From IMG/VR virus record IMGVR_UViG_3300031993_004551, positions 1 to 64,000 of that record: a stretch of 64,000 bases of DNA; one strand, 5' to 3'. Positions 2,866-64,000 of the stretch are shown in pieces (positions within the stretch are counted from its first letter, which is position 1; the number at the start of each line of letters is the position of its first letter). Below the pieces are notes generated by a model. It was not told the DNA's origin. It searched no databases and was given only the letters and a program-made list of their open reading frames with translations. This DNA is from a virus. Lineage: Duplodnaviria > Heunggongvirae > Uroviricota > Caudoviricetes. Made by a program: the position numbers and the translations under genes.

Positions 2866-3065
2866 GTTTTTTATAACATAGCGACGAGAAAACTCACCCA
2901 TCTTTAGTGGGTGAGATGAAAGCCGCTTGACGATTTTCGGAAAATTTGCTACATATATAAACTGATATACGAAGGCAACTCGCACTTGTCGTCGTGGGAA
3001 AGTTTAAGATGTACTTAGGTACATTGTGTCCTACCGGAAGTGCGAGTTCCGGTAGGATTTTTCGT

Positions 3066-4337
3066 ATGATAGTCAAGAAAGGCATAGAAATCAAGCTATA
3101 TCCGAACAAGGCGCAGAAGGTATTCTTTGCGAAGACCTTCGGTTGCTGTCGTTTCGTGTATAACCAGTGCCTTAAAATCAAGTCATATATCTACGAAGAG
3201 ACCAAGATGTCCTTCCAGCCGAAATTGAAGTCGTTTAAGGAAGAATGGGAATGGCTCAAGGAAGCCGACTCGCAAGGACTGGCTAATGCCTATATGGATA
3301 TGAACCAAGCCTACCAGAACTTCTTTACTGGTAAATCCAATTATCCGAGGTACAAGTCCAAGAAGGACAAGCAGAGCTACCGGAATGCTATGTGCCACAA
3401 GGATATTAAGAAACTAATTGTTGGCAATTCTATTGTACTGCCGAAGGTTGGTGCGGTCAAGTGCCGTTTCGGCAAGACATTCGAACACGAAAACATCGTT
3501 AAAATTTACAATGTTACAATCAAGAAAAGCAAGAAAGGCGACTATTATTGCTCAATATGTTGTGATGTTGATGTGCCGGAAATGGAACATACTGGCGAAT
3601 GCGTAGGACTCGACCTCGGCATCAAGTCGTCCATCGTGATGTCCAACGGAGAAGTGATTAAGAATCCACATTTCGATAAGAAGTCGGAACGAAAGATTAG
3701 GCATTTGCAGAGGAAACTCGCAAAGGCGAAGAAAGGCGGCAGTCGATACGAGAAAGTCCGTATTCAACTGGCCGCAGCCTATGAAAAACTGGGTAACAGA
3801 AGGAAAAACTTCCTTCATCAAGTATCGCACAGATTAGTCCGTGACTACGATATCATCTGTATGGAGAACCTTAACATAAAGGGAATGCAGAAAAACCATT
3901 GTCTTGCTGGCGCGTTGGCCAATCAGGCACTCGGTACACTAACTAAGATGATAGAGTACAAAGCTCAATGGCATAACCGTACGGTCGTTAAGGTAGGACG
4001 GTTCTTCCCCAGTTCGCAACTATGCAACAACTGTGGGCATAGATACCATACATTGAAACTTAGCGAACGCGAGTGGATATGTCCAGACTGTGGTAGCGTA
4101 ATAGATAGGGACTGGAATGCCGCCAAGAACATACTTGATGAAGGTCTTAGAATACTAGATAATGAAGGTACCCCGCGAACCGGGGAAGCCGTGGTCTTGC
4201 GACCGCTATGCCTTGCGGAGAACCCAACTGTGGATGAACGTCCTTGTGACCTAAAAAGCAGTGGTGCTATGATGCGGGAAATTCAACTGGTTGCATCGGT
4301 GGTTAACGAAACCCACCGGTCTTTAGCCGGTGGGTAG
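3066..4337 (+). CDS. tnpB: TnpB (IS605 OrfB-family RNA-guided nuclease)
   Basis: LYPNKAQ...GCCRFVYNQ N-terminus. RuvC-I GLDLGIKS. Zn finger CNNCGH...WICPDCGSVIDRDWNAAKNIL. Start moved to ATG 3066 (MIVKKGIEIKLYP). Confidence 0.85.
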   Translation: MIVKKGIEIKLYPNKAQKVFFAKTFGCCRFVYNQCLKIKSYIYEETKMSFQPKLKSFKEEWEWLKEADSQGLANAYMDMNQAYQNFFTGKSNYPRYKSKKDKQSYRNAMCHKDIKKLIVGNSIVLPKVGAVKCRFGKTFEHENIVKIYNVTIKKSKKGDYYCSICCDVDVPEMEHTGECVGLDLGIKSSIVMSNGEVIKNPHFDKKSERKIRHLQRKLAKAKKGGSRYEKVRIQLAAAYEKLGNRRKNFLHQVSHRLVRDYDIICMENLNIKGMQKNHCLAGALANQALGTLTKMIEYKAQWHNRTVVKVGRFFPSSQLCNNCGHRYHTLKLSEREWICPDCGSVIDRDWNAAKNILDEGLRILDNEGTPRTGEAVVLRPLCLAENPTVDERPCDLKSSGAMMREIQLVASVVNETHRSLAGG

Positions 4338-43770: not shown

Positions 43771-44901
43771 CTAAAGTCGTGGGATTCTGGGAGTTGCCAC
43801 AGATGGGCAACATGTCCCAAAGGTAGATGCCCCTACCTTACATAAGTTAATTGCGGCATTCCTATCCCTATCGTGTTCCGCACCACATTTAGGACATATC
43901 CAATGACGGATTGACGCATCCTTCAATTTGTGGTTTTTATAACCGCATTCGGAGCATAGCTGACTGGATGGATACCACTTGTCTGCGTACATGACCGTCT
44001 TACCAGTCCTATGAGCTACATATTCGAGAACGCTCAAGAAGGTATCGAACCCGAAGTCATACATGGACTTTTTGTACTTCCTGGATAGATTACCCAAGTC
44101 CAGCGTTTCAAACACCATCACATCGTAATCACGGCAGAACCGCCGAGCCAACTTCCAGTGCATGTCCGAACGCTGATTAGCCACCTTCTCGTGTAGCTTC
44201 TGCAATGTACGCAGCGAGCCTCGCTTACCTTTAGACTTTCGGTATTTCTCCGATAAGTTCCTTAAAGAATTGAGGTTCTTCTGCAAGATTTTAGGCATAC
44301 TGCAATCATCACCGTTAGAGGAAACCAAGAAGTCATGCACACTGAAGTCGAAACCAACGATTTCACCCGATTTAGTCCACTCTGTCTGTGTACATTCTTG
44401 CTCTACGACTACATAAATATAGAAACCATTACTCTTGCGTTTGACGGTGAGCGTTTTAATCTTGCCGTCGAAATCCCTGCTGTTCCAGTAGGGAAAGTCT
44501 TTCTTGCCTATCTTAACATGATTTAAGTCGTGAAACTTGTATCCAGCTTGCTTCGTCGTGAATGAATGATATTTAGCCGTCTTCTGGAAGTGAGGAGGAT
44601 TAGTCTTCTTTCCAGCTTTCAAATTCGAGAAGAATAAATGGTATGCCCGGTCTATCCTATCCGTTATGTCTTGGATGGCTTGCGAAGGAACTTCGTTCCA
44701 CTCTGTATATTGTTTCTTCAACTTTGTGAGGTACTTCTGTAACTGGTACTTATTCAACATCTTATGGTAGATGCCATAGTACCGACGGTGCAGAGCAATA
44801 CAGTGGTTGAATATCCGACCAGCAATAACAAGTATATTGTCGAGATACTTCAAGGAATCCCGATTGTACAGCTTGTATTTGTATGTATTCAATTCAACCA
44901 T
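43771..44901 (-). CDS. tnpB: TnpB (IS605 OrfB family)
   Basis: RuvC-I VGFDFSV. SQLCSECGYKNHKLKDASIRHWICPKCGAEHDRDRNAAINL is the Zn finger plus RuvC-III. Start at ATG 44901 (MVELNTYKYKLY). Confidence 0.85.
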   Translation of the reverse strand: MVELNTYKYKLYNRDSLKYLDNILVIAGRIFNHCIALHRRYYGIYHKMLNKYQLQKYLTKLKKQYTEWNEVPSQAIQDITDRIDRAYHLFFSNLKAGKKTNPPHFQKTAKYHSFTTKQAGYKFHDLNHVKIGKKDFPYWNSRDFDGKIKTLTVKRKSNGFYIYVVVEQECTQTEWTKSGEIVGFDFSVHDFLVSSNGDDCSMPKILQKNLNSLRNLSEKYRKSKGKRGSLRTLQKLHEKVANQRSDMHWKLARRFCRDYDVMVFETLDLGNLSRKYKKSMYDFGFDTFLSVLEYVAHRTGKTVMYADKWYPSSQLCSECGYKNHKLKDASIRHWICPKCGAEHDRDRNAAINLCKVGASTFGTCCPSVATPRIPRL

Positions 44902-44955
44902 AGATAAGCAAAATGTCCACAGAACGCTTAATTTGCCCGTCAGCATTCCGTGGAC

Positions 44956-44983
44956 ATTCTAAATTCTAAATTCTAAATTCTAA
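44956..44983. repeat. tandem heptamer repeat (ATTCTAA)x4
   Basis: Four direct copies read from the sequence, 55 nt from the tnpB start. Confidence 0.8.
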
Positions 44984-47759: not shown

Positions 47760-49165
47760 CCTCCAACAAAACTATAGCAAAATATATTGGAATTGGATAA
47801 AATATTTTGTAAATTATATAAACATTTTAATGTATCGGAATTATTGGCCTTCTTCTGGTACAAGATAGGAATTTTAGATGCTCGGTAGATACTGAAGGCC
47901 AAAATAAGTGTCTACCGGGCATTGCTTGTTTTATGGTGATTAGTTATAACGCAGTTCTCATCTTTCCTAATACGGAAACCGAATCGAGATACAAGGAAGT
48001 TCTCGATGCTGAGAAGGATTGCTATAACTATCTTAGCCAGATATTCGACCGAATAAACTTTAAGCACCATAGATTAAGTCGATACGATGTACAATCGGAA
48101 TATTACAAGGAACTTAGGGAGAAATTTCCATTATTAAGCAGCCAGATGGTCCTGAAGACTATATTGGAAGCTGTAGGCAACTGGACTACTTGCATAGCAA
48201 ACGAAAAGGACAATTTCGAACCGCCTATCAAAAAGAACCTTTCCATGGTTCTCGACAAGCGACTGTACAGCAATTTAACGCGTAATACCGTCGATTTGAC
48301 TATACCCGGTTTCAAACGGGTCCACTGTACCATTGAAACATACGAACAGCTAGACAAGTTGTTTGAGGTATACCGCCCGCAGAACTGCAATATATTCTAT
48401 CGAAACGGTCGGTTCTTCCTAACGATACAGTTCGATGTACCGGAAATTGAGCACACCGAAGGCGAAGCTATCGGTATCGACCGAGGAATTCGCCGTATAG
48501 TGACCTGTTCCGATGGAACCGGGTGGATTAACCGTGATTTCAACCGAGAACGAAGGAAGCTCCGCTATCTTCGCCGTTGCTTAAAGTCAAAGAATAGCAA
48601 GTCCGCTAAGCGTCATTTGAGGAAATTGTCAAAGACTGAACGAAATCGTTCGAAGAACGAAGTCCATCGAGTAGTGAACTGGCTTCTTACCAAGGACTAT
48701 ACTACCTATGTACTAGAAGATTTAAGCAAAATTAAGAAGTCTACTTCCAAGAAAACCATCAAGATATATGGGAAGAACACGGAAGTCAAACGAAAGAAGC
48801 ATAATAACCGGTTTGGGCAGATTCCTCTGAAAGAAATCCAGACCACGCTAGAGTACAAGGCACCGCTTCTCGGGAAGGAAGTGGTAACAGTTGAACCAGC
48901 TTATACATCCCGCCTCGACTACCGAGGATTGCCCGAAGGCAAACGGCTGGGTACTCGTTATTATGCCTCGAACGGAGAATTGCTTGATGCCGATGGTAAT
49001 GGCGCTTGCAATATCGCCCTCCGTCACCGCCCCGACTCAATCGTAGTCAAGCCGACATACGGCTCTATGATATTCTCGGGCAGGCCGATGTCAACCGGCC
49101 AATCGTGGTTACAACTATTTCAAACGGTTGCAACTACAAGCTCACCGCCTAAAGGCGGTGCGTAG
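47760..49165 (+). mobile_element. IS200/IS605-family tnpB-only element
   Basis: AT-rich noncoding LE-like region at 47760-47932. The tnpB 3' end carries the hairpin CACCGCCTAAAGGCGGTG. Confidence 0.4.
47933..49165 (+). CDS. tnpB: TnpB-like protein lacking the canonical Zn finger
   Basis: RuvC-I AIGIDRGIRR. RuvC-III-like GNGACNIAL. No CxxC...CxxC between them (YTSRLDYRGLPEGKRLGTRYYASNGELLD). Confidence 0.72.
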   Translation: MVISYNAVLIFPNTETESRYKEVLDAEKDCYNYLSQIFDRINFKHHRLSRYDVQSEYYKELREKFPLLSSQMVLKTILEAVGNWTTCIANEKDNFEPPIKKNLSMVLDKRLYSNLTRNTVDLTIPGFKRVHCTIETYEQLDKLFEVYRPQNCNIFYRNGRFFLTIQFDVPEIEHTEGEAIGIDRGIRRIVTCSDGTGWINRDFNRERRKLRYLRRCLKSKNSKSAKRHLRKLSKTERNRSKNEVHRVVNWLLTKDYTTYVLEDLSKIKKSTSKKTIKIYGKNTEVKRKKHNNRFGQIPLKEIQTTLEYKAPLLGKEVVTVEPAYTSRLDYRGLPEGKRLGTRYYASNGELLDADGNGACNIALRHRPDSIVVKPTYGSMIFSGRPMSTGQSWLQLFQTVATTSSPPKGGA

Positions 49166-55930: not shown

Positions 55931-56706
55931 AGACGGTCAGCCGCCTCCCTGAACCACTTGCACCCGTCATCCTTAAGGAAGCAGACACGGGACAGCTCGC
56001 CTTCCCCGTACATGTAGCCCTGGATGATGAACGGGGGATGGTCGACTCCAGACACGAGCCATACAATCCTGCGATAGATTCTGCCGGCGATATCCTCGTC
56101 TGCAAGCAAAGAGACCTTTACCTTGTGGCCGTTAAGAAGCTCGACTTCAGAAAACGGAGTATCCTTGTTGACAAACTGTTCCAAGTCAAATGCAGTGTAC
56201 AGGTGAACGATGCAGTTGTAGTCGTCGCAGCCGGTACGAATCTGCTTCTGACGCCAAACGAACTTCTCGCGGAGCTTCGGCAGCCTTGACACCAGTCGGT
56301 TGAGGATATCGACAAGCCGTCGGTTCAACTCCTCGCGGAATTCCTTCGCGGATTCCTTCCCGGTAATCCAGCAGAGCTTCTCCTCGCGAAGATGGACCGG
56401 CTTCCCGTTTTCTCCCGTGGTCCACCCGAGCGAACGGCGTGTCTTGAAAATGGGCTTCACCAATCCCGGATGAAAACCCGCCCCGCACCTAGCCATTTCC
56501 TCTTGATTGCCGCCCAGAATGAACTGGTCGGCAAGGAAAATGTTCCCTGCCGGTGCATTGAACACATAGCCAAGCACTACGCCGGTATCGGCATAGGTAA
56601 ATACATAATCGCCATCATTTTTCTTCGTGACGGTGATGAAGTGCTTTTCGAGGTACTTCTTGTCGATAAGCGTGTCGAATTCGATATCTCTTTCGTTTGC
56701 AGTCAT
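55927..56706 (-). CDS. hypothetical protein (260 aa)
   Basis: Start at ATG 56706 (MTANERD), 33 nt downstream of the promoter motif. 4-nt overlap with the helicase gene. Confidence 0.45.
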   Translation of the reverse strand: MTANERDIEFDTLIDKKYLEKHFITVTKKNDGDYVFTYADTGVVLGYVFNAPAGNIFLADQFILGGNQEEMARCGAGFHPGLVKPIFKTRRSLGWTTGENGKPVHLREEKLCWITGKESAKEFREELNRRLVDILNRLVSRLPKLREKFVWRQKQIRTGCDDYNCIVHLYTAFDLEQFVNKDTPFSEVELLNGHKVKVSLLADEDIAGRIYRRIVWLVSGVDHPPFIIQGYMYGEGELSRVCFLKDDGCKWFREAADRL

Positions 56707-56739
56707 ATTTAACTTCCATTGGTGGGCCAATATTCTATT

Positions 56740-56755
56740 CAAATATAGCAAAAAA
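56740..56755 (-). promoter_or_regulatory. promoter motif (minus-oriented)
   Basis: CAAATATAGCAAAAAA. Confidence 0.5.
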
Positions 56756-56783
56756 TCATAAACTCCAGATAACGAGGTACAAA

Positions 56784-57578
56784 ATGTTCAAGCCGATTTT
56801 AAATGCACGACAGAAGCAGTTCATCCACAGCGTCGTTTCGAGGGATAACGGTGAAAACCGCCCCATTCTCGAAGCAATCGTAAAGTCCTACATCCTCAAC
56901 GAGGGACTGTTCCGCTCGGCGAAGATGCTCGCCTCCAATTTCCGGTCCGCACCGAAGCAGGCCGAACCCCCGAAGTGCCCCGAGCCAGACCCGAAGACAC
57001 TCCCGGACTACGCATCGCTCAGCCGTGCGATAATGTTCGAGAAGGACTGCTGGGAGAGGGACCTCCGCAAGTTCTACGAGAACTGCGAGCTCATCAAGTA
57101 CTACCTCTCCACCTACGGAATCCGGGACTTCAACCAGATAGTCCACTCGGAAGCGTTCAAGAACGCCCTGCGGATGGGTCAGCAGCTTGACAAGATGCGC
57201 ATCAACCCGTTAAAGCGGGACGAGGGTCGGCGCCAGAACATGCACGAGTGCCTCAATATGCTGAACCGCGGCGAGGACCGGGTGCTAATCGAGGGAATCC
57301 TGCTTGACTTCGACGACAGTGAACGGGTAGAAGTCGGGCTCCCGCCAGTCATGGAATCCCGTGAGGACAACCTCGGCCCGTTCAAGGAAGCGATGGCCGG
57401 CATAGCCAATTTCATGCGGCGCCACGGTAGCTACCCGTGGGAACAGTTCCTGAAGGAAAACCGGATGCTTCTCGCCCGTGCAAACCGATTCGACGAACCG
57501 ATAAAACCGGACCACTCGAATGCGAAGTCACCGAACAGCGACTTCCGCTACTCGTTAAACTTGAAGGCAACCGCCTAG
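56784..57578 (+). CDS. hypothetical protein (265 aa)
   Basis: ORF from ATG 56784 (MFKPILN). The track start at 56697 would overlap the divergent promoter. Confidence 0.45.
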   Translation: MFKPILNARQKQFIHSVVSRDNGENRPILEAIVKSYILNEGLFRSAKMLASNFRSAPKQAEPPKCPEPDPKTLPDYASLSRAIMFEKDCWERDLRKFYENCELIKYYLSTYGIRDFNQIVHSEAFKNALRMGQQLDKMRINPLKRDEGRRQNMHECLNMLNRGEDRVLIEGILLDFDDSERVEVGLPPVMESREDNLGPFKEAMAGIANFMRRHGSYPWEQFLKENRMLLARANRFDEPIKPDHSNAKSPNSDFRYSLNLKATA

Positions 57579-58141
57579 ATAATATCATTTTCGATTGAAT
57601 TTATTATGCCGAGGGAGATGGCTTCCTCGGCATTCAAGTATACATCGCCGGACATCATCTTGTCGCATTCGGTATCGGATACTCCGACATTCTTGAGTAT
57701 GCGCTTGAACATCCCGTTGAACATCTCGAGCTCCTCATACATTTCCTTAAGTTCTTTCGGTGTAAGGGTCTTGCTTTCATCACCCTCCTCGTAGCGGCCC
57801 GGATGGAACATCATTCTTGAATGGGAGTACATCGTACGAGTGTCCCCGATGCATGTAATCAGTGCGGCCATAGAATAAGCTTTTCCGGATACTACCGTGT
57901 GGATATGACAATTCTTCGTCTTAGCTATGGTAAGAGCATCTATGATGCGGAGTCCCTCCTCTATATCCCCACCGTCACTAGAAATAATAACGGTGATGTT
58001 GCCCGGGACTTTAGCGACTCTGTGCAATGAGAGAACGAACTTCTCCGAGGAATCCTCGTCGATTTCCCCCGTAATCCTTATTATTCTTTCCGCCTCTTCG
58101 TCCCGGGCAATATCAACATCGTCAAAATCGTCGTCGCACAT
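57575..58141 (-). CDS. clpP: ClpP-family serine protease (likely prohead/scaffold protease)
   Basis: ISSDGGDIEEGLRIIDAL...GKAYSMAALI (Ser)...RMMFHPG (His) align with the ClpP catalytic core. Confidence 0.78.
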   Translation of the reverse strand: MCDDDFDDVDIARDEEAERIIRITGEIDEDSSEKFVLSLHRVAKVPGNITVIISSDGGDIEEGLRIIDALTIAKTKNCHIHTVVSGKAYSMAALITCIGDTRTMYSHSRMMFHPGRYEEGDESKTLTPKELKEMYEELEMFNGMFKRILKNVGVSDTECDKMMSGDVYLNAEEAISLGIINSIENDII

Positions 58142-58299
58142 ACCTGAAGATTATATGACTTAGCATGCCGGGTGTGCACTTTTCATTGTTGATATCCTGT
58201 TGATAAAATGTTATTATCTTGGTTATAGTGTTGATAGATTTTCAAAAGCGTCATTTCCGTATTAAAAACGCTATTTCCAACTTGGAATATTCCAATATA

Positions 58300-58750
58300 T
58301 GTAAATGGACGCATTTTATACAAAAAATATCAAAAGTATAGCCAAAATAGCTAAATAGATGCTAGATTTGAATATAGCAAGCACCAATAATCAATATTTG
58401 TGTGTTGCATTTAGCAACATATATGTATTCATAAGGAATGCTCGCATCAACGGCCCATAGATGTATAATCTAAAAGTGAATCTTGAACTCTTTGCTCTGG
58501 ATAACACTTTTCGTTGATTAGACTCAGTGAAGCATAATAATATGCTGAACTATGTTAAAAAGACCATGACACCCTGAGATATTTGGCCAAGTCTCTCGCC
58601 CTGTCGAACGATATTAAACAACCCAGATGGGTAAGGGTAGTGTATCGTTCATAAAAATCTTTTTAACCTTGTCGATGGTCACCCACAGGGATTAATCCCT
58701 GCATTACCTATTAAATTAGGTATAAAAGGATAGCGAAATGGTTTATGTGT
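58300..58750 (+). ncRNA. putative IscB omega-RNA (upstream of and overlapping the iscB 5' end)
   Basis: IscB omega-RNAs are established to lie directly 5' of iscB. Hairpins GTTGCATTTAGCAAC and CAGGGATTAATCCCTG are seen. Exact boundaries unknown. Confidence 0.4.
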
Positions 58751-60021
58751 TGAACAAGTCGGGAACCCCACTAATGCCAACTAGACGGTATGGTAAGGTT
58801 CGCCGTCTTATCAAAACCGGATTAGCTATTGTAATTCAGCACCAACCGTTCACTATCAAATTATTATATGATACTCTTAACAAAGTACAATTTGTTAATC
58901 TAGGTGTTGATGCGGGAAGTAAACATGTTGGCTTTTCGGCATCTACAACACAAACAGTATTGTTTGAAGCTCAACTAGATTTACGAACCGACATCACTAA
59001 AAAAATAGCAACTCGCAAACAATATCGTATTGGACGACGCTACCACAAAACACGGTATCGAGAAGCTAGATTTAATAATCGTATCAAATCAAAACGACAT
59101 AATTGGGTAGCGCCATCAATTAAAAATAAAATCGATAGCCATATATATTGGATTACTCGAATATGTTCTTTTTTACCAATTAAAAAAATAATAATTGAAG
59201 TAGGACAATTTGATACTCAATTATTAAAAGCAAATGATAATAATGAACTTGCTCCCAGGGGACGTGACTATCAAACTGGTGTGCAACTCGCCTTTTGGAA
59301 TACACGCGAATATATATTATACCGCGACAATCACACTTGTCAATGTTGCAAAGGGAAAAGTGGCGATTCGATACTGAACATTCATCACATTGAAAGCCGC
59401 AAGATTGGCGGAAATCGACCAGATAATTTAATTACCTTATGTAAAACATGCCATCGCAACTATCACGCTGGTATTTTAAAATTACCTAGTCGAATAAAAC
59501 GACCCAAATCATATCGGGATGCCGCTACAATGAATATGTTTCGAAACCACATGTATAAACAATTAAAACAAATGCTTGAACCAATTATTCAAGTAAATGT
59601 AACATATGGATATATCACTAAGCATTGCCGCATTAAGTATAACCTACCTAAAACACATATAATAGATGCTAGATGCATTAGCGAACACCCATTAGCTAAA
59701 CCGAGTTCAACATATTGGCGTATCAAAAAACGAAGAAACCATAATAGACAATTGCACAAATCTACCATTCTTAAAGGTGGGTTAAGAAAAAATAATCAAG
59801 CACCATATGAAGTATTTGGATTTCGATTATTTGACGCTGTTAAATATCACCAAATGACTTGTTTTGTAACGGGACGCCGTTTAACCGGGTTATTTGCAAT
59901 AAACAATATTGATAAAACTATACGGGACAATTCAATTAGTTATAAAAAATTATCTCATATGTATCACACTAATTCTAACCTAATGGAGGAAATGATGTAT
60001 CATTCATCTAATACCAACTAA
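58738..60021 (+). CDS. iscB: IscB (OMEGA RNA-guided nuclease: PLMP-RuvC-bridge helix-HNH-RuvC)
   Basis: N-terminal GTPLMPT (PLMP domain). RuvC-I LGVDAGSKHVGFS. Arg-rich bridge helix RKQYRIGRRYHKTRYREARFNNRIKSKRHNW. RuvC-II IIIEVGQFD. HNH CQCCKG...NIHHIESRKIGGNRPDNLITLCKTCH. RuvC-III THIIDARCIS. Confidence 0.85.
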   Translation: MVYVLNKSGTPLMPTRRYGKVRRLIKTGLAIVIQHQPFTIKLLYDTLNKVQFVNLGVDAGSKHVGFSASTTQTVLFEAQLDLRTDITKKIATRKQYRIGRRYHKTRYREARFNNRIKSKRHNWVAPSIKNKIDSHIYWITRICSFLPIKKIIIEVGQFDTQLLKANDNNELAPRGRDYQTGVQLAFWNTREYILYRDNHTCQCCKGKSGDSILNIHHIESRKIGGNRPDNLITLCKTCHRNYHAGILKLPSRIKRPKSYRDAATMNMFRNHMYKQLKQMLEPIIQVNVTYGYITKHCRIKYNLPKTHIIDARCISEHPLAKPSSTYWRIKKRRNHNRQLHKSTILKGGLRKNNQAPYEVFGFRLFDAVKYHQMTCFVTGRRLTGLFAINNIDKTIRDNSISYKKLSHMYHTNSNLMEEMMYHSSNTN

Positions 60022-60024
60022 TGA

Positions 60025-61152
60025 GTGTATACATCATATATTTACATTATGAACCCTGTCATTTCATACTCAGATGAACACTATCACGGGTACCGCGGGT
60101 CCGAAATCATCCGGACCAAGCACGGTGAACCAATCTACGCCAAGACAGAAGGGCAGCAGCGCCTCGTCGAAGCAATCGCCAATAACGACATCATCTTCGT
60201 GAACGGTCCTTCGGGCACCGGCAAGACCGCCATATCCACCTGGCTAGGCATCGCCGGAATCGACAGGGGCATTTACAAGCATCTCGTCCTGACCCGCCCG
60301 GTGGTTACCTCGGGCGAAGAAATCGGGTTCCTCCCGGGTACGATGGATGAAAAGGTGGCTCCCTACATGGAGCCCCTGTATTCCGCCATCAGCCTCATCA
60401 AGGGTAGGCGCGACGAGAGGCCGGTAGAATCCAAGGAGCAGCTCCCGGTCGATTTGTCCACCAAGGAGAAACGCAAGAAGCGCGCCGAAAAGAAAGTGGA
60501 AGCAGTCGAAGAGCACAAGTCATTCTACGATATCGTACAGGTTTGCCCGCTCGCGTTCATCCGCGGCTCCACGCTCGCCAGTTCATTCATTGTCTGCGAC
60601 GAATTTCAGAACACGACCATCGCGCAGATGAAGACGATGCTCACCCGCATCGGCCGCGGCTCCAAGATGGTAATCTGCGGGGACAGCAAGCAGTGCGACC
60701 TCCCGGAAAATGTAGAATCCGGATTCACCCACGCGATGAAGCTCCTCAAGGGCCTCAAGCGCGTAGCCTTCGTGGAACTGGGCATCGACGACATCGTTCG
60801 TCACGGGCTCATCAAGAACATCATCCTTCGCTACGAGCGCCCCGAGGAAGCCAAGAATCTCTCCGAGGAGGAAGCCGCCATGGACTATGTGAAGAAGACA
60901 CACACGCCTGGCTGGATGAAGGAAGATGACGGAATCGACTTCTCCAAGGATGATATCGAAGACCAAGACGAAAACACCCACGACATCGACCCGGTGGAAC
61001 CCAAGGAAGAAAGCAGCGAGCCGTCCGGTTTCGAGCCGTTCGACGAGCAGGAGCTCATCAACCGAGAAAACGAGAAGTACGCCGCCGAATACCAGGAGCA
61101 AATGGAAGCTCGCCGCGGGCCTCACCACGGGAACTGGCGAAGGACCCGATAG
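60025..61152 (+). CDS. phoH: PhoH-like ATPase with internal Lys-rich insertion and acidic C-terminal tail
   Basis: Walker A GPSGTGKTA. LTRPVVTSGEEIGFLPG. CPLAFIRGSTL. VCDEFQNTT. ICGDSKQCDL. Confidence 0.88.
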   Translation: MYTSYIYIMNPVISYSDEHYHGYRGSEIIRTKHGEPIYAKTEGQQRLVEAIANNDIIFVNGPSGTGKTAISTWLGIAGIDRGIYKHLVLTRPVVTSGEEIGFLPGTMDEKVAPYMEPLYSAISLIKGRRDERPVESKEQLPVDLSTKEKRKKRAEKKVEAVEEHKSFYDIVQVCPLAFIRGSTLASSFIVCDEFQNTTIAQMKTMLTRIGRGSKMVICGDSKQCDLPENVESGFTHAMKLLKGLKRVAFVELGIDDIVRHGLIKNIILRYERPEEAKNLSEEEAAMDYVKKTHTPGWMKEDDGIDFSKDDIEDQDENTHDIDPVEPKEESSEPSGFEPFDEQELINRENEKYAAEYQEQMEARRGPHHGNWRRTR

Positions 61153-62119: not shown

Positions 62120-64000
62120 TTGAAAAACCGTTGTCAAAAATCTAACAAAACCTACCAGTAGTAGATAATTGCTGATTTTCTATAGCTTGCTTGAACAAGC
62201 CATCGCAACGGCATTTTTCCAGACACTTCTTCACCTTCCACCTAGTAAGGAGTCCTTTCGGAATGAAGTACCTGTATTCGCTATCCCCTGCTCTTATGAG
62301 CAGGTTCCCTCTTAACACGGTCGAGGTAAGGCGAAATTTAATGTTCTCGGCCGAATGGATGTCGGCATTCTCGGAATGTCCGCATTCCACGCAGCAAAAT
62401 TCTTCTTGGGTCTGTCGGTTGCGGTCGTCGATGCAACCGCACTCACCGCACATCTTGGATGTATATTCGGGCTGTACAAGCGATACTAGCAAGCCGTACT
62501 TGGGTGCAATATGTATGAACTCGTCCTTCAACGAAGATAGTCCAGTCCGCAGATGCAACCTACCTAGATTAAATCCTTTTGAGTCATTAGCATGGAGTTT
62601 GCTCCCTTTGAAGCCGTCGAGGTTCTCCATTGCGATGTGCTTGAGTCCCTTAGCAGCAAAGGCTTGACAGAGCAGTACAATGGCTCGCTTGTTGGACTCG
62701 TTCAGCTTTAAGGTGATTGATTCAATGCGAGCTTTGTCCTTCTTGGATATCTTGAACGCATCGTGTTCCTCGCCTTCCTTAAACTTGGTATTGTAATTCT
62801 TCTGCTTCTGGTCTATATTGAGTAGTTCGGTTTCTAGGTCAGCTATCAGAGCATCGTCATTCGGCATGAACTCGCCGTTGCTCAATGCAAACATATTGTG
62901 CTTGGAATTGACATCTATACCGAGGGTATTTTCTTCGGTAATTTCCTCATTATTCTTGTATCGGTATCCGTCCCTAGCAAGAACAAAATGGATGTCCTTA
63001 CCACGGATAACTATTGTATAGGAAGTATCGGTTCCGTTGCAGTAACGGTTCAATGAACGGTGGTATGCCTTGTTATACTTGAACGGAATACATAGTGTGT
63101 TCTTACTATCGCCACGGTAGCCTTTGTCGTACCAATCCCAAGAAATTTCAATATAGTAGTCGAACTTTCCGGTCTCGTTCCTTCTGGCATCTACGATAGG
63201 ACGCTTGATGCGACTTCTGCCACTGAACGTAAGCGATTCGAAGGTAATCTTGCCTCGTTTCTCGTATTCAGAAAATACGGCAGACCGTCTTGATAGAGCC
63301 AACCGCATAAGGCGGTCAAACCCGAACTTCCTAATCTTATCCAATATGGTGCGGTAGAATTTCTGCTTTGTTGCATCAACCGTAGGAATTACTGATTCCA
63401 GCCAGTAGACAGTTTCATCCTTACCGTATCGTGCAAGCCAAGTCAGCACTTTGGTAAGTTCTGTCTTCTTTGTGCGAACTTCAACAGATTTAAGGTCACC
63501 TTTCTTGTGTCCCTTGACATTTATCTTGTAGAAAAATGGTACTAATTCATCAACCTTGACGAACTCAATCTTCCGGCGGATTGCATCGAACCGGAGCTGA
63601 TAGGCTCGCCATACATCCTCAATGGTCTTCTTCAAATAGTGACTAGACAGACGTGTATTGAATGTAGGGTTGAAGAAATTGAAAGCATCAAACTTGCTCA
63701 TATCTTGGAAACCGAGCATATCCGAGAAGAACACTTCGGATATGTCGTTTCTTACTGCACGGATTTCCTCAGCACGGTGGATGATTTCGGCTCGCTTCGT
63801 GTCGGACAAAAACATAGGATAGAACGCAGCCGAAAACTGCGATTCAAACCTATCTTTCAATGTCCAACAGTGCTTGCTCATATAAACAGAAATGGCTCGT
63901 AAGGAACTTATTGTGAGATTCAATTCCAAACGAGCCATCATAAATGGCTTCTACCTAGCCCAATGAAGAATCTCACTAATTCATTGAACCTCGATACATC
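62105..64000 (-). mobile_element. IS200/IS605-family element with long tnpB (extends past the window end)
   Basis: tnpB ORF 62142-63941. Only 59 bp of 5' flank lies in the window. Confidence 0.4.
62142..63941 (-). CDS. tnpB: TnpB-like protein, long form (599 aa)
   Basis: RuvC-I LGIDVNSKHN. Zn finger CGECGCIDDRNRQTQEEFCCVECGH plus ADIHSAENIKF (RuvC-III). About 200 aa longer at the N-terminus than the other copies. Confidence 0.78.
   Translation of the reverse strand: MMARLELNLTISSLRAISVYMSKHCWTLKDRFESQFSAAFYPMFLSDTKRAEIIHRAEEIRAVRNDISEVFFSDMLGFQDMSKFDAFNFFNPTFNTRLSSHYLKKTIEDVWRAYQLRFDAIRRKIEFVKVDELVPFFYKINVKGHKKGDLKSVEVRTKKTELTKVLTWLARYGKDETVYWLESVIPTVDATKQKFYRTILDKIRKFGFDRLMRLALSRRSAVFSEYEKRGKITFESLTFSGRSRIKRPIVDARRNETGKFDYYIEISWDWYDKGYRGDSKNTLCIPFKYNKAYHRSLNRYCNGTDTSYTIVIRGKDIHFVLARDGYRYKNNEEITEENTLGIDVNSKHNMFALSNGEFMPNDDALIADLETELLNIDQKQKNYNTKFKEGEEHDAFKISKKDKARIESITLKLNESNKRAIVLLCQAFAAKGLKHIAMENLDGFKGSKLHANDSKGFNLGRLHLRTGLSSLKDEFIHIAPKYGLLVSLVQPEYTSKMCGECGCIDDRNRQTQEEFCCVECGHSENADIHSAENIKFRLTSTVLRGNLLIRAGDSEYRYFIPKGLLTRWKVKKCLEKCRCDGLFKQAIENQQLSTTGRFC

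What the first reader, a model, noticed from the sequence alone, without database searches (positions are those of the whole stretch)
58142..60021. AT-rich IscB (OMEGA) element with about 600-bp upstream omega-RNA region inserted between the protease gene and phoH
IscB is the compact PLMP-RuvC-HNH ancestor of Cas9. All catalytic signatures are present. Its codon usage is conspicuously A/T-rich against GC-rich neighbours, suggesting recent horizontal arrival. The long noncoding leader has the hairpins and repeats expected for an omega-RNA. No CRISPR array or tnpA accompanies it.
Basis: partly seen in the sequence, partly recalled or inferred. Interest (0 to 1): 0.7.

Follow-up and report, generated by a model that had tools for sequence, protein, structure and literature searches.

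The report
Phage IscB guide-RNA nuclease element
A complete 1.6-kb IscB nuclease element with its guide RNA sits between the ribosome-binding site and start codon of a phage phoH gene, and its guide matches the uninterrupted site in sister phages, so it looks like an RNA-guided homing element spreading among phages.

Summary
The finding is real and the identification is correct.

- **Protein:** the ORF at 58738-60021 (+) is an intact IscB. It has the RRXRR/PLMP domain, a split RuvC and an HNH domain, and every catalytic residue is present.
- **RNA:** a HEARO/omega-RNA scaffold lies upstream at 58446-58686, scoring 97.7 bits against a gathering score of 83.
- **Boundaries:** Sister phages about 94-95% identical (L023, L024, L025) have an empty site, which places the element at 58446-60048 (1603 bp, GC 0.35).
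- **Leader:** the first ~290 bp of the "leader" is the native clpP-phoH intergenic region, not omega-RNA.
- **Insertion site:** the element lies exactly between the phoH ribosome-binding site and its ATG.
- **Guide and target:** the 16-nt guide, CATAAGGAATGCTCGC, is identical to the empty site. There it is followed by ATGAGA, a motif compatible with known IscB target-adjacent motifs. In the occupied site it is followed by ATCAAC.
- **Flanks:** sequence next to the element is far more diverged (37-66% identity) than the rest of the genome (92-99%). This looks like a co-conversion tract.
- **Absent:** no tnpA and no CRISPR array were found.
- **Also present:** four TnpB-family genes in the window, and a different IscB element at another RBS/ATG junction in L025.

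Best reading: a non-autonomous IS200/IS605-type OMEGA element that homes between co-infecting phages. It is a new member of a known kind, of moderate interest.

The parts
57575..58141 (-). clpP-like protease gene; the left neighbour, not part of the element
   Evidence: Pfam CLP_protease 5.5e-22. It is 88-91% aa identical in sister phages L023-L025.
58142..58291 (.). Native clpP-phoH divergent intergenic region, not part of the element. It carries three GTTGATA repeats and promoter-like hexamers reading towards the guide
   Evidence: 91-93% identical to the phages with an empty site. Sigma-70-like sites at 58189-58217 and 58200-58229 on the + strand. These are consensus matches only.
58292..58426 (.). 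Left flank with abnormally high divergence; a putative co-conversion tract from a diverged donor phage
   Evidence: 58292-58375 is 60-66% identical to L023-L025 and 58376-58426 is 37% identical, against 92-99% genome-wide.
58430..58445 (+). Omega-RNA guide, CATAAGGAATGCTCGC. It is the former phoH ribosome-binding site (AAGGAA) plus spacer
   Evidence: It lies immediately 5' of the HEARO scaffold. Positions 58427-58447 are 21/21 identical to the empty sites of L023 and L024. It occurs once in the window.
58446..58686 (+). Omega-RNA scaffold (HEARO), which is also the transposon end next to the guide. Its first bases, ATCAA (58446-58450), are the transposon-encoded motif that differs from the target-adjacent motif
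   Evidence: RF02033 at 97.7 bits against a gathering score of 83. DNA similarity to the other elements (L025, L045, L048) begins exactly at this position.
58687..58737 (+). Two short hairpins (CAGGGA-TTAA-TCCCTG and ACCTA-TTAAAT-TAGGT) and the iscB ribosome-binding site (AAGGA)
   Evidence: Nearly identical in the L025 element although the rest of the two elements is about 70% identical.
58738..60021 (+). iscB ORF, 427 aa: PLMP/RRXRR, RuvC-I, bridge, RuvC-II, HNH, RuvC-III and a C-terminal beta-rich domain
60022..60048 (+). Terminal 27 nt of the element past the iscB stop (the conventional left end, read in reverse complement)
   Evidence: The empty-site comparison puts the junction at 60048|60049. 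Three related elements also end TT|ATGAA, 24-36 nt past their stop codons. The hairpin prediction is not significant.
60049..60054 (+). Target-adjacent motif position, ATGAAC. The ATG is the phoH start codon
   Evidence: The empty sites read ATGAGA at the same position. ATGAA is the reverse complement of the TTCAT motif of GstIscB (PMC10055086).
60049..61152 (+). phoH-like ATPase gene; the right neighbour. Its first ~45 nt are strongly diverged from sister phages (putative right co-conversion tract), and it is 96-99% identical from 60095 onwards
   Evidence: Pfam PhoH 6e-64.
58446..60048 (+). The whole inserted IscB-omega-RNA element, 1603 bp. Each junction is ambiguous by about 2 nt because both begin with AT
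   Evidence: Occupied and empty sites compared. GC is 0.349.

Best explanation
**What it is (shown).** This is a non-autonomous IS200/IS605-type OMEGA element, 58446-60048. It consists of an omega-RNA scaffold and an intact iscB gene, and it lies in a large uncultured phage genome.

**Where it sits (shown).** It is inserted exactly between the ribosome-binding site and the ATG of phoH. No target duplication was made.

**How it most likely works (inferred).**
1. Transcription from the native phoH promoter in the clpP-phoH intergenic region runs through the old ribosome-binding site into the element.
2. This produces an omega-RNA whose 5' guide is CAUAAGGAAUGCUCGC.
3. IscB loaded with this RNA recognises the uninterrupted phoH start region of sister phages, CATAAGGAATGCTCGC followed by ATGAGA, and cuts it with its HNH and RuvC domains.
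4. Its own locus is spared because there the guide sequence is followed by ATCAAC.
5. In a cell co-infected by a phage with the element and a phage without it, the break is repaired from the genome that carries the element. The element and some flanking sequence are copied in.

This is RNA-guided homing, comparable to the free-standing homing endonucleases of T4-like phages. It needs no TnpA.
For: **Identity of the parts.**
- Pfam RRXRR and HNH, and matches to solved IscB structures.
- Catalytic residues present and invariant in the family.
- HEARO above the gathering score, 51 nt upstream of the ATG on the same strand.

**Insertion polarity.**
- Three sister phages at 93-95% nucleotide identity have clpP and phoH separated by about 300 bp with no IscB there.
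- Ten more distant relatives also lack IscB at this site.
- Joining the window's left and right flanks reproduces the empty site...GCTCGC|ATGA..., without a duplication.

**Guide and target.**
- 21/21 identity at 58427-58447 with L023 and L024, next to flank that is 37-66% identical.
- The 16-mer occurs once in the window, followed by ATCAAC. In L023 and L024 it is followed by ATGAGA.

**Motif.**
- ATGAGA fits the NWRRNA motif of OgeuIscB (PMC12660989).
- ATGAA is the reverse complement of the TTCAT motif of GstIscB.
- The published geometry matches: scaffold at one transposon end, guide outside it, the target-adjacent motif abutting the other end, and an internal motif that differs at about two positions (PMC10055086).

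**Replication in other elements.**
- A different IscB element in L025 sits at another RBS/ATG junction. Its empty site in L023 is again followed by ATGAGA.
- Four of four close elements end TT|ATGAA at the start codon of the next gene.

**Co-conversion-like signature.**
- Identity to L023 falls to 0.62-0.65 only in the bins touching the element, and is 0.96-0.99 just outside them.

**No TnpA** in the window.

**Literature.** Homing into co-infecting phages is described as theoretically expected. TnpA-independent spread has been shown for TnpB on plasmids (PMC13565253).
Against: - No expression or cleavage data exist; everything about activity is inferred from sequence.
- The motif is not identical between the occupied flank (ATGAAC) and the empty sites (ATGAGA). 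If this IscB strictly needs ATGAA, the sampled sister alleles may be resistant rather than susceptible.
- The guide region is also a conserved ribosome-binding site. Even distant relatives match 13/16, so its perfect conservation is not explained only by guide function.
- The window has other mosaic patches unrelated to the element. For example, orf 56697-57578 is 52% aa identical to L023. Ordinary phage recombination could therefore have produced the diverged flanks.
- Only one phage lineage carries this exact element, in three contigs that are 99.99-100% identical where compared. Spread is not directly observed.
- The end hairpins expected for an IS200/IS605 end are not statistically supported.
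Confidence: 0.6

Rival explanations
1. **Classical transposition plus restorative homing only.** The element was placed at this site by a Y1 TnpA supplied in trans, from the host chromosome or another mobile element. It inserted 3' of a TTCAT-like site. IscB serves only to restore the element after TnpA excision, using a replicated copy of the same phage genome, and does not serve to invade other phages.
For: - The architecture, the seamless insertion and the two end motifs are exactly those of IS200/IS605-family IscB elements studied in Geobacillus (PMC10055086).
- Different elements occupy different ATGAR sites in sister phages, as de novo transposition would give.
Against: - No tnpA in 64 kb, nor in the gene tables of four related loci.
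- Transposition does not explain why the flanks next to the element are 37-66% identical while the genome is 92-99% identical.
- The closest family members are all in phage-like contigs.
Confidence: 0.22
2. **Inter-phage weapon.** The nuclease is kept by the phage mainly to destroy or exclude co-infecting relatives by cutting their phoH start region. Copying of the element is incidental.
For: - The guide matches sister phages and not the phage's own locus.
- Competitor killing by phage homing endonucleases is documented for protein-guided enzymes (PMC13565253).
- The phage carries five OMEGA-type nucleases in 64 kb.
Against: - A single cut in a genome that can recombine is normally repaired from the co-infecting template, and that is homing.
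- The insertion removes the ribosome-binding site from phoH, which looks like a cost to the phage rather than a domesticated arrangement.
- The guide is simply the flanking DNA, as in any selfish OMEGA element.
Confidence: 0.1
3. **Inactive passenger.** The element is a stranded remnant that no longer produces a working ribonucleoprotein and merely hitch-hikes in this phage lineage.
For: - No TnpA.
- Only one lineage carries it.
- The HEARO score (97.7 bits) is lower than for most relatives (100-143 bits), and the first hairpins align poorly.
- The structure model was uninformative.
Against: - The ORF is intact at full family length.
- Every catalytic and zinc-binding residue that is invariant across 26 homologues is kept.
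- The scaffold is above Rfam's gathering score.
- The guide still matches the empty site 21/21.
Confidence: 0.08

Closest known systems
IS200/IS605-family IscB-omega-RNA elements (ISC family; e.g. ISGst5 IscB of Geobacillus stearothermophilus, Meers et al. 2023, PMC10055086)
   Same: - The order guide, scaffold, iscB on one strand.
- A guide made of flanking DNA outside the transposon end.
- Seamless insertion.
- A target-adjacent motif abutting the far end: ATGAA here, TTCAT for GstIscB (reverse complements of each other).
- An internal motif at the scaffold end (ATCAA) that differs from it at one or two positions.
- Dependence on read-through transcription from an upstream gene or promoter in the same orientation.
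   Different: - It lives in a phage genome, not a bacterial chromosome.
- No TnpA anywhere in 64 kb.
- It sits exactly between a ribosome-binding site and a start codon, so the motif contains the ATG.
- Diverged flanks suggest acquisition by recombination rather than by transposition.
- Sequence identity to characterised IscBs is low.
OgeuIscB (solved structures 7UTN, 7XHT, 8CSZ)
   Same: - Same domain order and catalytic residues; E = 1e-36 alone and 4e-63 with a family profile over residues 1-345.
- HEARO-type omega-RNA.
- The empty-site motif ATGAGA fits its NWRRNA motif (PMC12660989).
   Different: - 427 aa against 496 aa.
- The C-terminal ~80 residues do not align by sequence.
- OgeuIscB comes from a human gut metagenome and has not been described as phage-borne.
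Free-standing homing endonucleases of T-even phages (SegF, SegB, Mob; intronless homing)
   Same: It appears to work like them. The gene sits between two conserved phage genes. Its nuclease target is the allele of related phages that lacks it. Flanking sequence appears to be co-converted (PMC13565253).
   Different: Target recognition is by a ~16-nt RNA guide plus a short motif, not by protein-DNA contacts. Self is told from non-self by the presence or absence of the element, not by substitutions in a nearby gene. There is no protein homology to GIY-YIG or LAGLIDADG enzymes.
TnpB-driven gene drive of IS605 on plasmids (Mears et al. 2025, cited in PMC13565253)
   Same: TnpA-independent spread of an OMEGA element into element-free copies of a multicopy replicon, by guide-directed cutting and repair.
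   Different: That work used TnpB, plasmids and experiments. This case involves IscB and phages, and is inferred from natural sequence variation.
Type II CRISPR-Cas9
   Same: Split RuvC with an inserted HNH; RNA-guided; the motif lies 3' of the target.
   Different: No CRISPR array, no cas1/cas2, no REC lobe; a single fixed guide taken from flanking DNA.

Membership tests
IscB (OMEGA RNA-guided nuclease) | N-terminal PLMP/RRXRR domain | tested here: met
   PF14239 at 5.3e-54 over residues 2-167; the motif GTPLMPT starts at residue 9.
IscB (OMEGA RNA-guided nuclease) | Split RuvC with catalytic D (I), E (II) and H..D (III) | tested here: met
   D58, E154, H307 and D310 align to the catalytic positions of solved IscB and are invariant in 26 homologues.
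IscB (OMEGA RNA-guided nuclease) | HNH domain inserted in RuvC, with a zinc-binding cysteine cluster | tested here: met
   PF01844 at 1.6e-8 over residues 201-244. H216/H217, N230, H239/H243 and C201/C203/C204/C235/C238 are present.
IscB (OMEGA RNA-guided nuclease) | C-terminal domain that reads the target-adjacent motif | tested here: inconclusive
   Residues 345-427 are conserved in the family (G361, D366, V368, R380, G384 invariant) and predicted beta-rich. They do not align to solved IscBs by sequence, and the structure model was too poor to search with (pLDDT 46).
IscB (OMEGA RNA-guided nuclease) | RNA-guided cleavage of double-stranded DNA | not testable with these tools
   Needs a biochemical or interference assay.
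HEARO / IscB omega-RNA (Rfam RF02033) | Covariance-model score at or above the gathering score, immediately upstream of iscB on the same strand | tested here: met
   97.7 bits against 83; full model 1-211; ends 51 nt before the ATG. The same arrangement is seen in 12 related loci.
IS200/IS605-type transposon (ISC subgroup) | Y1 (HUH) TnpA transposase | tested here: not met
   No PF01797 in the gene tables or scans covering nearly all of the window. The element is at best non-autonomous, as most ISC elements are said to be (PMC13565253).
IS200/IS605-type transposon (ISC subgroup) | Insertion without target duplication, next to a short specific motif, with presence/absence polymorphism | tested here: met
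   Occupied site compared with three empty sites. The flanks rejoin as ...GCTCGC|ATGA....
IS200/IS605-type transposon (ISC subgroup) | Subterminal imperfect hairpins at both ends | tested here: inconclusive
   The scaffold's first stem could serve at one end. At the other end a 9-bp-plus stem is predicted, but with z = -0.4.
Type II CRISPR-Cas | CRISPR array and adaptation genes | tested here: not met
   No repeat array. No Cas1/Cas2 domains in the gene tables.
Homing genetic element (functional class) | The nuclease's recognition sequence is the allele without the element, and is disrupted in the allele with it | tested here: met
   Shown by sequence only. Guide plus ATGAGA is present in L023 and L024; in the window the guide is followed by ATCAAC.
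Homing genetic element (functional class) | Super-Mendelian transmission in mixed infection, with co-conversion of flanks | tested here: inconclusive
   A flank-divergence pattern compatible with co-conversion is present. Transmission itself cannot be tested here.

The most novel reading that the evidence does not exclude
A clade of IscB-omega-RNA elements has become a phage-borne, TnpA-independent gene drive. Its target-adjacent motif (ATGAR) contains a start codon, so the elements lodge between the ribosome-binding site and the ATG of phage genes. They take the ribosome-binding site as their guide and are transcribed from the host gene's promoter. They then home into co-infecting relatives, dragging flanking sequence with them. 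Together with several TnpB elements, they would drive mosaicism in large rumen or gut phages in the way protein homing endonucleases do in T4-like phages.
Probability: 0.4. Interest if true: 0.65.

Novelty: new member of a known kind. Interest (0 to 1): 0.45.

Why it matters
IscB-omega-RNA systems are the ancestors of Cas9 and are being developed as compact genome editors. Their natural role has been shown in bacteria as transposon maintenance. Spread into co-infecting phages has only been proposed on theoretical grounds (PMC13565253).

This locus offers a natural matched set:
- an occupied allele;
- three empty alleles in near-identical phages;
- an intact guide-target pair with a candidate motif;
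- an apparent co-conversion tract.

That set makes RNA-guided homing between phages directly testable with synthetic constructs. It also supplies a short (427 aa) IscB with a predicted guide and motif. Finally, it shows that IscB genes, which are labelled only "HNH endonuclease" or "hypothetical protein" in the deposited phage records listed, may be overlooked mobile elements that shape phage mosaicism.

Tried and rejected
- **DNA search of deposited phage genomes** with the 6-kb neighbourhood: only short phoH matches and no relative. Relatives had to be found by protein-seeded scans of viral and metagenome contigs.
- **First syntenic relative (L001):** it has an unrelated GC-rich 222-aa ORF between clpP and phoH. 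It is too distant to define boundaries and was superseded by L023-L025.
- **Boundary at the iscB stop codon:** I considered placing the right boundary at 60024, with a duplicated target. The reason was that 60025-60038 (GTGTATACATCATA) resembles the empty-site sequence GTGTAAACATTCATA. I rejected this because it would need an extra 24-nt indel, and because three related elements also extend 24-36 nt past their stop codons to TT|ATGAA. The resemblance is left as probable chance.
- **Motif search downstream of 13 family members:** ATGAR is present within 31 nt of the stop codon in 7 of them. The loci are too diverged for a clean family logo.
- **DNA folding of the far end:** not better than shuffled sequence.
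- **AlphaFold2 model from a 26-sequence alignment:** pLDDT 46, so no fold search was run.
- **One exact-protein look-up** found nothing.
- **Literature searches** for phage-borne IscB or TnpB homing found only a 2026 review that treats it as theoretical.
- **"Ancestral, then lost" polarity:** rejected because 13 relatives lack IscB at this site and the element's GC3 is 0.26 against 0.57-0.76 for its neighbours.
Full report
**1. The observation**

The segment 58142-60021 contains one long ORF, 58738-60021 on the + strand, 427 aa.

- Pfam assigns it the RRXRR/PLMP domain (5.3e-54, residues 2-167) and an HNH domain (1.6e-8).
- Against solved structures, the best matches are IscB proteins: 1e-36 to 1e-38 with the single sequence and 8e-66 with a family profile. 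They are followed by IsrB and small Cas9s.
- The RuvC residues D58, E154, H307 and D310, the HNH residues H216/H217, N230 and H239/H243, and the zinc cysteines C201/C203/C204/C235/C238 are all present. All are invariant among 26 homologues.
- The composition contrast is real. GC is 0.32-0.39 across 58100-60000 against 0.50-0.58 on both sides. GC3 is 0.257 for iscB, 0.761 for phoH and 0.571 for clpP.
- A covariance-model scan finds HEARO (RF02033), the RNA family now known as the IscB omega-RNA, at 58446-58686 on the same strand. It scores 97.7 bits against a gathering score of 83 (E = 1e-19). It is the only Rfam family above threshold in all 64 kb.
- The RNA 58430-58737 folds much better than shuffled sequence (z = -3.7).
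- There is no CRISPR-like array and no tRNA gene.
- No Y1 transposase domain appears in the Pfam gene tables or scans that together cover almost the whole window.

**2. Where the window comes from, and its relatives**

The window is 100% identical to an ENA metagenome contig over the 13,263 bp compared, and differs at one base in 8,983 from a JGI contig. Neighbouring genes are phage-like: terminase, RNA ligases, a PIF1-type helicase, ClpP, PhoH and a tail-fibre gene.

Deposited phage genomes hold no close relative. Protein-seeded scans found two useful sets:
- syntenic large phages at 60-72% PhoH identity;
- three sister phages (L023, L024, L025) that are 93-95% identical in DNA over the neighbourhood.

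**3. The empty site and the true boundaries**

In L023, L024 and L025, clpP and phoH are separated by about 300 bp and there is no IscB between them. Ten more distant relatives also lack IscB at this site.

The alignments show the empty site as ...GTGTAAACATTCATAAGGAATGCTCGC|ATGAGACAAG..., where AAGGAA is the phoH ribosome-binding site and ATG is its start codon.

In the window:
- the left junction reads ...ATTCATAAGGAATGCTCGC|ATCAACGG..., and ATCAACGG is the first base of the HEARO scaffold (58446);
- the right junction reads ...TATATTTACATT|ATGAACCC..., and this ATG (60049) is the phoH start codon.

Joining the two flanks restores the empty site with no duplication. The element is therefore 58446-60048 (1603 bp, GC 0.349). 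Each junction is ambiguous by about 2 nt because both begin with AT.

| Coordinates | What it is |
|---|---|
| 58142-58291 | Native intergenic DNA, 91-93% identical to the empty-site phages. Carries the GTTGATA repeats and promoter-like hexamers that face phoH |
| 58292-58426 | Diverged flank |
| 58430-58445 | Guide |
| 58446-58686 | Scaffold |
| 58687-58737 | Two small hairpins and the iscB ribosome-binding site. This stretch is almost identical in the otherwise ~70%-identical element of L025 |

**4. Guide, target and motif**

In characterised IS200/IS605-family IscB elements, the scaffold derives from one transposon end and the guide is the flanking DNA just outside it. The target-adjacent motif abuts the opposite end. 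The motif at the scaffold end differs from it at about two positions, which protects the locus from self-cleavage. The GstIscB motif is TTCAT, whose reverse complement is ATGAA (PMC10055086).

The window fits this geometry point by point:
- The 16-nt guide CATAAGGAATGCTCGC occurs once in the window, followed by ATCAAC.
- It occurs with zero mismatches in L023 and L024, followed by ATGAGA.
- ATGAGA fits the NWRRNA motif of OgeuIscB (PMC12660989).
- The window's own right flank reads ATGAAC.
- L025 has a 1-nt deletion inside the protospacer. This could be an escape allele, but that is speculation.

**5. Independent replication**

L025 carries a different IscB element (59% aa identity) about 2 kb away, in front of a different gene.
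- Its scaffold also starts ATCAAC and its far end reads ...TATTTTATT|ATGAAG.
- The corresponding site in L023 is uninterrupted and reads ...CGAGGAATCGACA|ATGAGAAAG. That is again a ribosome-binding site, a spacer and a start codon with ATGAGA. Three of the five guide bases nearest the motif differ there.

Two further close homologues, L045 and L048, end TT|ATGAAA at the start codon of the next gene. DNA similarity between these elements starts exactly at the scaffold's first base. In 6 of 13 family members the guide contains a Shine-Dalgarno-like sequence 5-9 nt before the scaffold.

The family therefore tends to lodge between ribosome-binding site and start codon, as expected if its motif contains ATG.

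**6. Flank divergence**

With the element removed, identity between the window and L023 is 0.92-0.99 in nearly all 100-nt bins. It drops to 0.62-0.65 in the two bins that touch the element and returns to 0.99 at 60095.

| Coordinates | Identity to the sister phages (L023-L025) |
|---|---|
| 58292-58375 | 60-66% |
| 58376-58426 | 37% |
| 58427-58447 | 21/21 to L023 and L024; 20/21 to L025 |

The first codons of phoH also differ: MNPVISYSDEHYH in the window against MRQDTAYADEHKY in the sister phages.

This is the pattern expected if the element entered this lineage by break-induced recombination from a more diverged donor phage. The flanks would be donor-derived, and the guide would necessarily be identical to the recipient's target.

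Two caveats apply. The guide is also a conserved ribosome-binding site, matching 13/16 even in distant relatives. The window also has other mosaic patches unrelated to the element, namely 56892-57591 and part of clpP.

**7. Mechanism**

- **Shown:** an intact IscB gene with its omega-RNA scaffold; a seamless insertion that is polymorphic among near-identical phages; a guide identical to the empty allele, with a compatible motif there and an incompatible one at the occupied locus; and no TnpA in the window.
- **Inferred:** transcription from the native phoH promoter yields the guide-bearing omega-RNA. The ribonucleoprotein cuts element-free phoH alleles in co-infecting relatives. Repair from the carrier genome copies in the element and its adjacent flanks. 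This is "non-restorative" homing, which a 2026 review calls theoretically expected for phages and which has been shown for TnpB on plasmids (PMC13565253).
- **Likely side effect:** phoH loses its ribosome-binding site and now starts 27 nt after the iscB stop codon, so its translation probably depends on read-through or coupling. This is also inferred.

Rival readings are TnpA supplied in trans with only restorative homing, a weapon against competing phages, and an inactive relic. They are weighed in the rival-explanations section of this report.

**8. Comparison with known systems, and novelty**

By every testable criterion except an accompanying TnpA, this is a member of the IscB/ISC branch of IS200/IS605 OMEGA elements. 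Most ISC elements are reported to lack TnpA. It is not a CRISPR system.

IscB homologues already exist in 30 deposited phage genomes, including Clostridium phage c-st and phages of Ralstonia, Staphylococcus and Nodularia. The listed records label them "HNH endonuclease" or "hypothetical protein", or carry no annotation. An IscB in a phage is therefore not new in itself.

What adds value here:
- the matched occupied and empty alleles;
- the placement at a start codon;
- the co-conversion-like flanks;
- the density of OMEGA nucleases.

The closest homologues (56-62% identity) also sit in phage-like contigs. These include scaffolds of about 350-470 kb labelled as Fibrobacter MAGs that encode a phage sheath protein and TnpB.

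Verdict: a new member of a known kind, of moderate interest (0.45). It would rank higher if phage-to-phage RNA-guided homing were demonstrated.

Noticed in passing
window 2994-4337 (+), 43771-44946 (-), 47933-49165 (+), 62142-63941 (-): Four mutually divergent TnpB-family ORFs (Pfam OrfB_IS605 and/or Cas12f1-like_TNB; at most 31% pairwise identity). Each lies in a lower-GC patch. With IscB, that makes five OMEGA-type nucleases in 64 kb of phage genome and no TnpA.
   Followed up: partly
window 62120-63941 compared with L023 8065-8110: The 599-aa TnpB-like gene is absent from sister phages L023 and L024. There the 97-aa ORF is followed directly by a terminator hairpin and a convergent 758-aa gene. 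This is a second presence/absence polymorphism of an OMEGA-type gene next to the finding. Its omega-RNA and ends were not mapped.
   Followed up: partly
L025 4753-6336: Sister phage L025 has an empty clpP/phoH site but carries a different IscB-omega-RNA element (59% aa identity; HEARO 120 bits). It follows the orf-61162 homologue and lies in front of a metallophosphatase-like gene. Downstream of it, L025 shares no DNA similarity with L023 or the window.
   Followed up: partly
L025 2960-2990 (phoH upstream): L025's copy of the protospacer has a 1-nt deletion (CATAAGG-ATGCTCGC) relative to the window's guide and to L023/L024. This is a possible resistant allele.
   Followed up: no
window 56892-57591 (orf 56697-57578): This gene of unknown function is only 52% aa identical to its L023 counterpart although its neighbours are 95-99% identical. 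It is a separate mosaic or hypervariable patch next to clpP.
   Followed up: no
window 58180-58235: Three direct copies of GTTGATA lie in the conserved part of the clpP-phoH intergenic region, overlapping promoter-like hexamers. They are conserved in L023-L025 and may be a regulator-binding site.
   Followed up: no
window 60025-60038: The element's last bases, GTGTATACATCATA, resemble the empty-site sequence GTGTAAACATTCATA just upstream of the guide match (13 of 15 with one gap). This is probably chance, but it is unexplained.
   Followed up: partly
L045-L047 (ENA scaffolds of up to 347 kb; the homologue is named Fibrobacter sp. MAG): Contigs carrying the IscB homologue P0048, which one source names as from a Fibrobacter MAG, encode a 1235-aa protein with a faint phage-sheath domain hit, plus TnpB. 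They look like very large phages, or prophages, binned as bacterial.
   Followed up: no
L015 2376-2451 (-): A Pistol ribozyme (RF02679, 65.6 bits) lies about 3.5 kb from an IscB element in a viral contig. tRNA clusters lie next to the IscB elements in L007, L009 and L013.
   Followed up: no
window 44956-44983: A perfect four-copy tandem repeat of ATTCTAA lies immediately upstream of the TnpB gene 43771-44946.
   Followed up: no
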